In this document: positions 42,250-42,478 of the stretch, piece by piece | How positions within the stretch are numbered: the first letter of the stretch is position 1 | Layout: each line of letters starts with the position of its first letter | Assembly: GCF_024700885.2 (NCBI RefSeq) | Contig: NZ_CP117016.1 | DNA from: Escherichia coli | Lineage (GTDB): Bacteria; Pseudomonadota; Gammaproteobacteria; Enterobacterales; Enterobacteriaceae | Length of the DNA: 64,000 nucleotides | Reading direction: 5' to 3' (one strand) | Translations under genes and position numbers: made by a program | The notes under the pieces: generated by a model | What the model saw: the letters and a program-made list of their open reading frames with translations, nothing else | Told to the model about the DNA's origin: nothing | Database searches by the model: none

Positions 42250-42300
42250 ATAAAACGATCGATATCTATTTTATCGATCGTTTATATCGATCGATAAGCT
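42250..42300 (+). promoter_or_regulatory. flu/agn43 phase-variation switch: three Dam GATC sites within the OxyR-binding region
   Basis: aaaacGATCgatatctattttatcGATCgtttatatcGATCgataagc (GATC at 42257, 42276, 42289), the characteristic agn43 regulatory sequence. Confidence 0.7.
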
Positions 42301-42478
42301 AATAATAACCTTTGTCAGTAACATGCACAGATACGTACAGAAAGACATTCAGGGAACAACAGAACCACAATTCAGAAACTCCCACAGCCGGACCTCCGGC
42401 ACTGTAACCCTTTACCTGCCGGTATCCACGTTTGTGGGTACCGGCTTTTTTATTCACCCTCAATCTAAGGAAAAGCTG

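What the first reader, a model, noticed from the sequence alone, without database searches (positions are those of the whole stretch)
42250..42475. Complete agn43 epigenetic switch and structured leader retained upstream of the possibly defective flu
Three GATC sites with the characteristic spacing lie within the OxyR-binding region, followed by a leader containing a strong hairpin and T-run (ccggtatccacg…gtgggtaccggcttttttt at about 42420-42450). The regulatory apparatus is preserved even though the coding sequence may be frameshifted.
Basis: established knowledge. Interest (0 to 1): 0.3.

Follow-up and report, generated by a model that had tools for sequence, protein, structure and literature searches.

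The report
Known Ag43 on/off switch, intact
This is the textbook Dam/OxyR epigenetic on/off switch and terminator-containing leader (IsrC RNA) of the E. coli antigen 43 gene, present intact in front of a copy of the gene that carries a very recent one-base frameshift, so it is correct but ordinary.

Summary
GATC sites lie at 42257, 42276 and 42289 (spacing 19 and 13 bp). They sit just downstream of a sigma-70-like promoter (TTGTCC-17-TAGAAT, 42223-42251) and inside the window's best match to the OxyR consensus (42255-42291). A 12-bp G+C-rich hairpin (42418-42445, -23.5 kcal/mol) plus T6 follows, then a Shine-Dalgarno sequence and the flu/agn43 ATG at 42479.

Rfam calls 42255-42458 the IS102 (= IsrC) RNA at 253.5 bits, covering the full model. 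The intergenic region differs from the experimentally studied K-12 region at one base (42261, G versus A), and G is the commoner natural variant.

Across 14 divergent Ag43/Cah regulatory regions the -10, the three GATCs, their spacing, the terminator and the SD are invariant, while the middle of the leader cannot be aligned.

The gene is frameshifted: GGGG became GGG at 44768-44770 (codon 764). The 782-aa product lacks the beta-barrel. Only one of 4092 E. coli genomes (MLI114, essentially this sequence) shares the deletion, so it is either very recent or a homopolymer error. Retention of the switch therefore says nothing special.

The switch is also reported to drive an agn43-yeeR-irmA operon, and both downstream genes are intact here.

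Verdict: already known, low interest.

The parts
42223..42251 (+). Sigma-70-type promoter of agn43/flu: -35 TTGTCC (42223-42228), 17-bp spacer, -10 TAGAAT (42246-42251)
   Evidence: This is the only promoter-like site found in 42000-42700. The AGAAT of the -10 is invariant in all 14 aligned alleles.
42255..42291 (.). OxyR-binding region: two 15-bp half-sites separated by 7 bp, containing all three GATC sites and overlapping the transcription start
   Evidence: It matches 14 of 20 specified positions of ATAGnTnnnAnCTAT-N7-ATAGnTnnnAnCTAT, tied for the best score in the 64-kb window. Arms 42253-42264 and 42272-42283 form a perfect 12-bp dyad. OxyR binding itself is taken from the literature on K-12 (PMC2909390, PMC13076061).
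42257..42260 (.). GATC-I (Dam target). The G is the reported transcription start in K-12.
   Evidence: Located. Invariant in 14 of 14 alleles. The transcription start is from my recollection of Wallecha et al. 2002, which I could not read. It is consistent with the -10 ending at 42251 and the Rfam 5' end at 42255.
42276..42279 (.). GATC-II (Dam target)
   Evidence: Located. Invariant, with a fixed 19-bp offset from GATC-I.
42289..42292 (.). GATC-III (Dam target)
   Evidence: Located. Invariant, with a fixed 13-bp offset from GATC-II.
42255..42458 (+). IsrC / IS102 RNA: the agn43 5' leader up to and just past its terminator
   Evidence: Rfam RF00124 scores 253.5 bits (gathering 46), E = 3e-49, covering model positions 1-206 of 206.
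42418..42451 (+). Intrinsic terminator/attenuator in the leader: 12-bp stem, 4-nt loop (42418-42445) and T6 (42446-42451)
   Evidence: Found. Energy is -23.5 kcal/mol with z = -7.1. All 12 pairs are kept in 14 of 14 alleles, and the only variation is U.G to U-A.
42467..42481 (+). Shine-Dalgarno AAGGA (42467-42471) and the ATG of flu (42479-42481)
   Evidence: Read directly from the sequence. TAAGGAAA and the ATG are invariant in the alignment. The start coincides with the RefSeq agn43 starts in K-12 and 118UI.
42479..45597 (+). flu/agn43 coding region, 3119 nt, frameshifted. The first reading frame ends at 44827 (782 aa). The remainder (44845-45597) encodes most of the beta-barrel.
   Evidence: Alignment to K-12 and 118UI. 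Pfam finds ESPR, AIDA and AC_1 in fragment 1 and PF03797 positions 40-254 in fragment 2. RefSeq marks the gene 'frameshifted'.
44768..44770 (+). Site of the frameshift: a GGG run where intact alleles have GGGG (codon 764)
   Evidence: Only MLI114 matches 44600-45100 at 100% among 4092 genomes with a match; the next-best hits are 1 nt longer.
45718..48234 (+). Intact yeeR-like gene, second gene of the reported agn43-yeeR-irmA operon
   Evidence: Open reading frame. RefSeq annotates a CDS at the same place in MLI114. The operon is from PMC4807369.
48310..48765 (+). Intact irmA (IrmA family protein), third gene of the reported operon
   Evidence: Open reading frame. RefSeq names it 'IrmA family protein'. 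Background in PMC4807369.
48790..48828 (+). First intrinsic-terminator-like site downstream of the flu promoter apart from the leader attenuator. It is the likely operon end.
   Evidence: 12-bp stem followed by TTTTATTTAT. No such site was found between flu and irmA.

Best explanation
This is the standard regulatory region of the E. coli antigen 43 gene (agn43/flu), complete and almost certainly functional.

Transcription starts from a sigma-70 promoter at or next to GATC-I. An OxyR tetramer binds 42255-42291, a site that overlaps the start point and holds three GATC sequences.

When the GATCs are unmethylated, OxyR binds, blocks RNA polymerase and shields the sites from Dam. This is the OFF state, and it is heritable. 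When Dam methylates them after replication, OxyR cannot bind and the promoter fires. This is the ON state.

The transcript begins with a roughly 220-nt leader. Its strong intrinsic terminator (42418-42451) stops part of the transcription and yields the roughly 200-nt IsrC/IS102 RNA. Read-through gives the flu mRNA and, in at least some strains, a flu-yeeR-irmA polycistron.

In this genome a one-base deletion in a G run at codon 764 truncates Ag43 before its beta-barrel. ON-phase cells could therefore not display Ag43.

The switch is intact because the lesion is very recent, or is an assembly error. Possibly it also still governs the intact yeeR-like and irmA genes.

Shown here by sequence: identity, anatomy, conservation and the frameshift. 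Taken from the literature: OxyR binding, Dam competition, leader termination and co-transcription. Inferred: that these hold for this allele.
For: Three GATCs at 42257, 42276 and 42289. The spaced pattern occurs once against 0.02 expected.

Promoter TTGTCC-17-TAGAAT. Best OxyR-consensus match in the window at 42255.

One base differs from K-12 across the intergenic region, and 501 of 501 bases are identical to strain 118UI, which has an intact agn43.

Full-length Rfam IS102 match at 253.5 bits. Terminator at -23.5 kcal/mol, z = -7.1.

In 14 alleles spanning the identity range, the -10, the GATCs, their spacing, the hairpin, the T-run and the SD are invariant, while the middle of the leader is unalignable.

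The exact three-GATC pattern is rare. It gave 4 hits in 298 Gb of species-representative genomes, all of them in the same type of regulatory cassette.

Literature: Dam/OxyR mechanism (PMC2909390, PMC3764049, PMC13076061); IsrC attenuation/antitermination of flu (PMC5389530, PMC5811629, both citing Wallecha et al. 2014); agn43-yeeR-irmA operon with the transcription start 228 bp upstream of the ATG (PMC4807369). That distance equals the leader length I compute for the ATCC 25922-type allele.

Frameshift and domain split.
Against: Nothing in the sequence contradicts it. The limits are as follows.

OxyR binding, methylation state and termination efficiency were not and cannot be measured here.

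The hairpin shows conservation but no compensatory covariation, so its structure rests on thermodynamics and on its canonical terminator form.

I found no convincing antiterminator structure: -38.0 kcal/mol against -57.8 with the terminator. How read-through is achieved remains unexplained.

In EAEC strain 042, irmA is transcribed from its own promoter rather than from the flu promoter (PMC9431211), so operon control of irmA is strain-dependent.

The primary papers (Wallecha 2002 and 2014, Waldron 2002, Haagmans 2000) were not available to read. Details such as the exact transcription start are from memory.
Confidence: 0.95

Rival explanations
1. The frameshift is not biological. It is a homopolymer-length error of the assembly, and the flu gene of this strain is in fact intact and phase-variably expressed.
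For: The lesion is a single G missing from a GGGG run. It is seen in only 1 of 4092 genomes with a match. The window and the RefSeq MLI114 record are identical over 20.6 kb except for another homopolymer-length difference, a C-run at 40358, which shows that homopolymer calls in this assembly have been unstable.
Against: The same GGG is present in both the window and the current RefSeq version. A run of four G is short for a systematic long-read error. Single-base frameshifts in agn43 copies are commonly reported as pseudogenes (PMC10058404 methods).
Confidence: 0.3
2. The switch and leader are kept by selection for a role that does not need Ag43. That role would be phase-variable control of the intact downstream yeeR-like and irmA genes, or a trans-acting function of the IsrC RNA.
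For: agn43-yeeR-irmA are co-transcribed from the agn43 start site and OxyR-repressed in UPEC EC958 and CFT073 (PMC4807369). Here yeeR-like (45718-48234) and irmA (48310-48765) are intact, and the first terminator-like site after flu lies at 48790-48818. In Citrobacter the same switch cassette directly precedes small secreted-protein genes instead of an autotransporter.
Against: The frameshift is too recent for retention to be informative. In EAEC 042, irmA uses its own promoter and deleting the flu promoter had no effect on IrmA (PMC9431211). No trans target of IsrC is known. The premature stop could cause Rho-dependent polarity on downstream genes.
Confidence: 0.25
3. The hairpin and T-run form the transcription terminator of the upstream GTPase (yeeP-like) gene rather than an attenuator within the flu leader.
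For: It is the first strong intrinsic terminator downstream of the GTPase stop codon at 42151.
Against: It lies 267 nt past that stop codon and 160 nt downstream of the flu start site. Its conservation tracks the flu 5' end: many alleles match the query only from position 314 (window 42413) onwards, that is the hairpin, SD and signal peptide, while the sequence next to the GTPase gene differs. The Rfam IS102 RNA begins at the flu start site and ends at this terminator. The literature assigns it to flu attenuation (PMC5811629, PMC5389530).
Confidence: 0.05
4. Read-through of the leader terminator is controlled by translation of an upstream ORF that runs across the hairpin. In the K-12 type this ORF starts at ATG 42323 and is in frame with flu.
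For: All four leader variants examined have an ATG-initiated ORF that crosses the terminator in the same frame...LYLPVSTFVGTGFFIHP.... No RNA antiterminator was predicted.
Against: None of these ATGs has a recognisable Shine-Dalgarno sequence. A second frame across the hairpin is also open with an ATG in Cah-type leaders, so the pattern is not distinctive. The peptide upstream of the invariant DNA block is not conserved. I found no ribosome-profiling report.
Confidence: 0.07

Closest known systems
E. coli K-12 agn43/flu regulatory region with the IsrC (IS102) leader RNA
   Same: Same promoter, same three GATCs with 19/13-bp spacing, same OxyR site, same leader length (222 nt from GATC-I to the ATG), and identical terminator, SD and start codon. 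326 of 327 intergenic bases are identical. The Rfam RF00124 match is full length.
   Different: One base differs: 42261 is G where K-12 has A. This makes the dyad 42253-42283 perfect, and G is the variant in most other alleles. The upstream GTPase gene is full length here but truncated by IS elements in K-12. The coding sequence here has a frameshift. The downstream yeeR and irmA genes are intact here but deleted or truncated in K-12 (PMC4807369).
cah (calcium-binding antigen 43 homologue) and Cah-type Ag43 alleles of E. coli O157:H7 and others
   Same: The -10, the three GATCs, their spacing, the terminator hairpin, the T-run and the SD are identical.
   Different: The leader is about 30 nt longer (252-253 nt), and its central roughly 120 nt and the -35 region cannot be aligned with the K-12 type. 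The coding sequences are only 73-77% identical.
Salmonella gtr and opvAB, and phage Mu mom (other OxyR + Dam controlled promoters)
   Same: All use competition between OxyR binding and Dam methylation of GATCs inside OxyR half-sites (PMC2909390, PMC4856963).
   Different: gtr and opvAB have four GATCs in three or four half-sites upstream of the promoter, with alternative activating and repressing OxyR positions. agn43 has a single repressing site over the start point (PMC2909390). No sequence relationship was tested.
pap-type fimbrial switches (Lrp + Dam)
   Same: Heritable ON/OFF states set by mutually exclusive methylation and regulator binding (PMC2909390).
   Different: The regulator is Lrp/PapI. 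There are two GATC boxes 102 bp apart, and both activating and repressing sites.

Membership tests
agn43-type OxyR/Dam phase-variation switch | Three GATC sites with fixed spacing (19 and 13 bp start to start) clustered in about 36 bp | tested here: met
   Sites at 42257, 42276 and 42289. One match against 0.02 expected. The spacing is identical in 14 of 14 alleles, including K-12.
agn43-type OxyR/Dam phase-variation switch | The GATCs lie within a sequence resembling the OxyR tetramer consensus | tested here: met
   14 of 20 consensus positions match at 42255-42291, tied for the top score in 64 kb. A score of 14/20 also occurs once elsewhere (36965), so the score alone is weak evidence.
agn43-type OxyR/Dam phase-variation switch | The OxyR site overlaps the start point of a sigma-70 promoter, so that binding represses | tested here: met
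   The -10 TAGAAT ends at 42251, 5 nt before GATC-I. The Rfam RNA 5' end is at 42255. The experimental start site is only from the literature (PMC4807369: 228 bp upstream of the ATG in EC958).
agn43-type OxyR/Dam phase-variation switch | Located directly upstream of an Ag43/Cah-family autotransporter gene | tested here: met
   The CDS 42479-45597 has ESPR, AIDA, AC_1 and autotransporter beta domains. It is 99.3% identical to K-12 flu and is annotated agn43.
agn43-type OxyR/Dam phase-variation switch | OxyR binding abolished by GATC methylation; ON and OFF lineages differ in methylation | not testable with these tools
   This needs EMSA or footprinting and methylation-aware sequencing of clonal lineages.
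IsrC / IS102 RNA (Rfam RF00124) | Score at or above the family's gathering threshold over the full model | tested here: met
   253.5 bits against 46, covering model positions 1-206 of 206, at 42255-42458 on the + strand.
Rho-independent terminator acting as leader attenuator | G+C-rich stem-loop immediately followed by a U-run, located between the start site and the start codon | tested here: met
   12-bp stem (8 G-C pairs), loop of 4, T6, at 42418-42451. This is 161 nt after GATC-I and 28 nt before the ATG.
Rho-independent terminator acting as leader attenuator | Structure supported by evolution | tested here: inconclusive
   100% of cells are paired in 14 sequences. However, 11 of 12 pairs never vary, one varies U.G to U-A, and there are no double changes. 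This is conservation, not covariation.
Rho-independent terminator acting as leader attenuator | A regulated alternative (antiterminator) structure or factor | tested here: not met
   The best fold without the terminator is -38.0 kcal/mol, against -57.8 with it. No competing helix engages the 5' arm strongly. A protein- or ribosome-mediated mechanism is not excluded.
agn43-yeeR-irmA operon | Gene order flu, yeeR, irmA on one strand, with no intrinsic terminator until after irmA | tested here: met
   ORFs at 42479-45597, 45718-48234 and 48310-48765. The first terminator-like site is at 48790-48818.
agn43-yeeR-irmA operon | Co-transcription from the agn43 promoter | not testable with these tools
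   Shown by RT-PCR in EC958 and CFT073 (PMC4807369) but not in EAEC 042 (PMC9431211). It is unknown for this strain.

The most novel reading that the evidence does not exclude
The three switch GATCs sit alone in a 4.5-kb GATC desert (41154-45657). The Ag43/Cah coding sequence contains no GATC at all in any of six alleles, down to 73% identity. About 8 are expected per allele, and GATC is the most under-represented tetranucleotide in each.

The most novel reading not excluded is that this desert is selected. It would insulate the epigenetic switch from processive Dam and from SeqA binding at neighbouring sites, so that switching rates depend only on the three regulatory GATCs.
Probability: 0.12. 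Interest if true: 0.45.

Novelty: already known. Interest (0 to 1): 0.1.

Why it matters
For genome annotation, the result allows a confident call. This is the phase-variable agn43 promoter, the IsrC leader/attenuator, a frameshifted agn43 pseudogene, and intact yeeR-like and irmA genes that may still be under the switch.

Biologically it adds nothing new to a system studied since 1999-2002. It would matter only if the strain were used to study aggregation or biofilm. In that case this copy cannot make surface Ag43, while other Ag43-family copies elsewhere in the genome may.

The side observations are the only parts with some prospect of novelty. These are the GATC-free Ag43/Cah coding sequences and the reuse of the same switch cassette in front of unrelated small secreted-protein genes in Citrobacter. 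Neither is established here.

Tried and rejected
(1) I looked for an RNA antiterminator by folding nascent transcripts of increasing length and by forbidding the terminator. No strong competitor appeared (-38.0 against -57.8 kcal/mol), so I rejected it as a supported mechanism.

(2) I tested the idea of a translated leader ORF across the terminator. ATG ORFs in the same frame exist in all four leader types. They lack Shine-Dalgarno sequences, and another frame is also open. I kept this only as a low-probability rival.

(3) I tested whether GATC absence is specific to the Dam/OxyR-regulated gene. TibA (1 observed against 5.6-8.8 expected) and a plasmid autotransporter (2 against 9.5-11) are also depleted. 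AIDA-I is not (7 against 9-9.7). Neighbouring island genes and a 5.3-kb related island (L026) are GATC-free too, and the whole window is GATC-poor (178 against 242 in shuffles). The depletion therefore looks island-wide or family-wide rather than a design feature of the switch.

(4) A second 14/20 OxyR-consensus match at 36965, with two nearby GATCs, is an AT-rich intergenic tandem repeat and not an agn43-like cassette.

(5) I tried to read the primary papers (PMC4135670, PMC135096, PMC2838033). They are not held, so mechanistic details rest on secondary citations and on memory.

(6) I could not locate the other Ag43-family copies of strain MLI114 (4 places), because the search tool reports only the best place per record.

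(7) The fold of the 5' palindrome as RNA (42257-42300) is not significant (z = -1.95). Its symmetry is explained by the DNA-level OxyR site.

Full report
**1. Observation**

Reading 41700-42900 and listing all GATCs confirms three GATC sites at 42257, 42276 and 42289. There is no other GATC between 41153 and 45658.

The spaced pattern GATC-N15-GATC-N9-GATC occurs once in the window, against 0.02 expected from dinucleotide-preserving shuffles.

A sigma-70-like promoter lies immediately upstream: TTGTCC, a 17-bp spacer, then TAGAAT, spanning 42223-42251. A terminator-like hairpin lies at 42418-42445, with 12 pairs, 8 of them G-C, a loop of 4, and TTTTTT after it. On its own the hairpin folds at -23.5 kcal/mol, with z = -7.1 against shuffles.

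**2. Identity**

The 501-nt segment 42100-42600 matches 4480 of 5426 complete E. coli genomes. It always lies between a 'GTPase family protein' gene and agn43 or cah. It is 100% identical to strain 118UI and 99.6% identical to K-12.

Aligned to K-12, the intergenic region differs at one base, 42261, which is G here and A in K-12.

Rfam finds one family in the region: RF00124 'IS102 RNA' at 42255-42458, 253.5 bits against a gathering score of 46, covering the full model. IS102 is the RNA now called IsrC. Published work describes it as the flu leader, involved in attenuation or antitermination of flu (PMC5389530 and PMC5811629, both citing Wallecha et al. 2014, which I could not obtain).

The best match in the whole window to the OxyR tetramer consensus is at 42255-42291, with 14 of 20 positions. 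It covers all three GATCs and the predicted start point.

**3. Conservation**

I aligned 14 regulatory regions sampled across the identity range. Two leader families, K-12/ATCC 25922-type and Cah-type, cannot be aligned in the -35 region or in the central roughly 120 nt of the leader.

The following are nevertheless identical in every sequence:
- the -10 AGAAT
- AAAACGATC, (C/T)GATCGTT and ATCGATC, which contain the three GATCs
- the 19- and 13-bp offsets between the GATCs
- the block TACCTGCCGGTATCCAC-loop-GTGG(G/A)TACCGGCTTTTTTATTCAC
- TAAGGAAA and the ATG

All 12 hairpin pairs are kept in 14 of 14 sequences. The only variation is U.G to U-A, so there is strong conservation but no covariation.

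The exact pattern CGATC-N14-CGATCGTT-N3-ATCGATCG gave only four hits in one genome per species, 298 Gb in total. All four are the same kind of cassette.

**4. Mechanism**

The mechanism of the switch is established knowledge, and I take it from the literature rather than from tests here. OxyR bound to the unmethylated site represses transcription and shields the GATCs from Dam. Methylation of the GATCs prevents OxyR binding and gives the ON state. The state is heritable and reversible at replication (PMC2909390, PMC3764049, PMC13076061, PMC4856963).

The transcript starts within the switch. From my memory of Wallecha et al. 2002, the start is the G of GATC-I. The -10 position and the Rfam 5' end are consistent with that. 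So is a 5' RACE start 228 bp upstream of the ATG in EC958 (PMC4807369), which equals the leader length I compute for the ATCC 25922-type allele.

The leader terminator should stop a fraction of transcripts and yield IsrC. Folding nascent transcripts, and folding with the terminator forbidden, showed no convincing antiterminator: -38.0 against -57.8 kcal/mol. How read-through is achieved is not explained by RNA structure alone.

**5. The coding sequence**

flu runs from 42479 to 45597 and is 3119 nt long, one short of the 3120 nt in K-12 and 118UI. A G is missing from a GGGG run at 44768-44770, in codon 764. The reading frame ends at 44827 after 782 aa.

Pfam places the extended signal peptide, AIDA repeats and autochaperone domain in this fragment. 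Most of the beta-barrel (PF03797, positions 40-254) falls in the downstream ORF 44845-45597. The product cannot insert into the outer membrane.

Only one of 4092 genomes with a match, strain MLI114, is 100% identical over 44600-45100. The next-best hits are one base longer. RefSeq marks the MLI114 gene 'frameshifted'.

The window is the same sequence as MLI114 from 32599 to 53217 except for one C-run length at 40358. Beyond that point an invertible tail-fibre segment is in the opposite orientation. The window is therefore the same strain, or another version of its assembly. The shared frameshift is not independent confirmation.

Strains with 100% identical upstream 12.5 kb have the intact gene. 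The lesion is either very recent or a homopolymer error. Either way, an intact regulatory region next to it is expected.

**6.

In UPEC strains EC958 and CFT073 the agn43 promoter drives an agn43-yeeR-irmA operon that OxyR represses (PMC4807369). In EAEC 042, irmA has its own promoter (PMC9431211).

Here a full-length yeeR-like gene (45718-48234) and irmA (48310-48765) follow flu. The first terminator-like site on the + strand lies at 48790-48818, just after irmA. The switch may therefore still have a job in this strain.

**7. Side observations**

(a) The Ag43/Cah coding sequence has no GATC in any of six alleles, down to 73% identity. Expected counts are 7.6-8.4 from an order-2 Markov model and 6.5-9.2 from synonymous-codon shuffles. 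GATC is the most under-represented tetranucleotide in each allele.

The depletion is not specific to flu. TibA and another plasmid autotransporter are also depleted, AIDA-I is not, and neighbouring island genes are GATC-free too.

(b) In Citrobacter braakii, C. amalonaticus and C. werkmanii the same -10 plus three-GATC cassette precedes small secreted or membrane protein genes. The leader there is short and lacks the terminator. In C. braakii the cassette sits in the same type of island, with GTPase, DUF932-like, antirestriction and RadC genes.

**8. Verdict**

The element is the well-known agn43 switch with its IsrC leader, so the finding is already known and of low interest.

Noticed in passing
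window 42479-45597, and more widely 41154-45657; also loci L002, L001, L014, L015, L016, L026: The Ag43/Cah coding sequence contains no GATC in any of six alleles (73-99% identical), against about 8 expected per allele. GATC is the most under-represented 4-mer in each. The three switch GATCs are the only ones in 4.5 kb here, and the only ones in the whole 5.3-kb locus L026. TibA and one plasmid autotransporter are also depleted, but AIDA-I is not. The cause could be island-wide avoidance or insulation of the switch; it is unresolved.
   Followed up: partly
L011 5108-5145 (-), L013 941-978 (+), L010 7175-7212 (-): The agn43-type cassette (TAGAAT or similar -10 plus three GATCs at 19/13 spacing) occurs in Citrobacter braakii, C. 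amalonaticus and C. werkmanii. There it lies in front of small signal-peptide or membrane protein genes, not an autotransporter, with a roughly 90-nt leader that lacks the Ag43 terminator. In C. braakii the flanks are the same island type as in the window (YeeP-like GTPase upstream; DUF932-like, antirestriction and RadC-like genes downstream). NCBIfam gave no family for the downstream proteins.
   Followed up: partly
window 53208-54815: A roughly 1.6-kb segment within phage tail-fibre genes is inverted relative to the RefSeq record of strain MLI114. A 'recombinase family protein' gene lies next to it (window about 52133-52705). It looks like a Gin/Cin-type invertible host-range segment caught in the other orientation.
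   Followed up: no
window 40358: A C homopolymer is one base longer in the window than in the RefSeq MLI114 record. This is the only difference in 20.6 kb outside the invertible segment. It suggests that the two are versions of one assembly and that homopolymer lengths in it are not fully reliable.
   Followed up: no
window 45658-48881: The yeeR-like gene immediately downstream of the GATC-free flu is GATC-rich: 20 in the 2.5-kb CDS against 14.8 expected, and 24 in 3.2 kb. This is a sharp contrast with its GATC-free neighbours on both sides (38190-41125, 42293-45657, 48878-52181).
   Followed up: no
window 44832-44847: An ATG at 44845, preceded by GAGG about 9 nt upstream, opens the 250-aa ORF for the rest of the beta-barrel. 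It lies only 18 nt after the premature stop at 44827. Re-initiation there could lessen polarity on yeeR and irmA. This is pure inference.
   Followed up: no
window 19346-19421 (-), 21170-21245 (+), 23578-23653 (+): There are three tRNA-Asn (GTT) genes, the asn tRNA cluster that serves as an island integration hot-spot. The first 9 kb of the window have 60-62% G+C, unusually high for E. coli, which suggests another horizontally acquired island there.
   Followed up: no
window 36940-36985: An AT-rich intergenic stretch holds a tandem CATGT(A/G)TTTGATCT repeat with two GATCs and a 14/20 match to the OxyR consensus, upstream of an HTH regulator gene. It does not resemble the agn43 cassette.
   Followed up: partly
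L012 (contig JAIJJM010000733.1, labelled Collinsella sp. MAG) 940-1190: A contig assigned to a Collinsella MAG carries an E. coli O157-type cah regulatory region. Its leader is broken inside the terminator hairpin by unrelated sequence. This is probably a mis-binned E. coli contig with an insertion.
   Followed up: no
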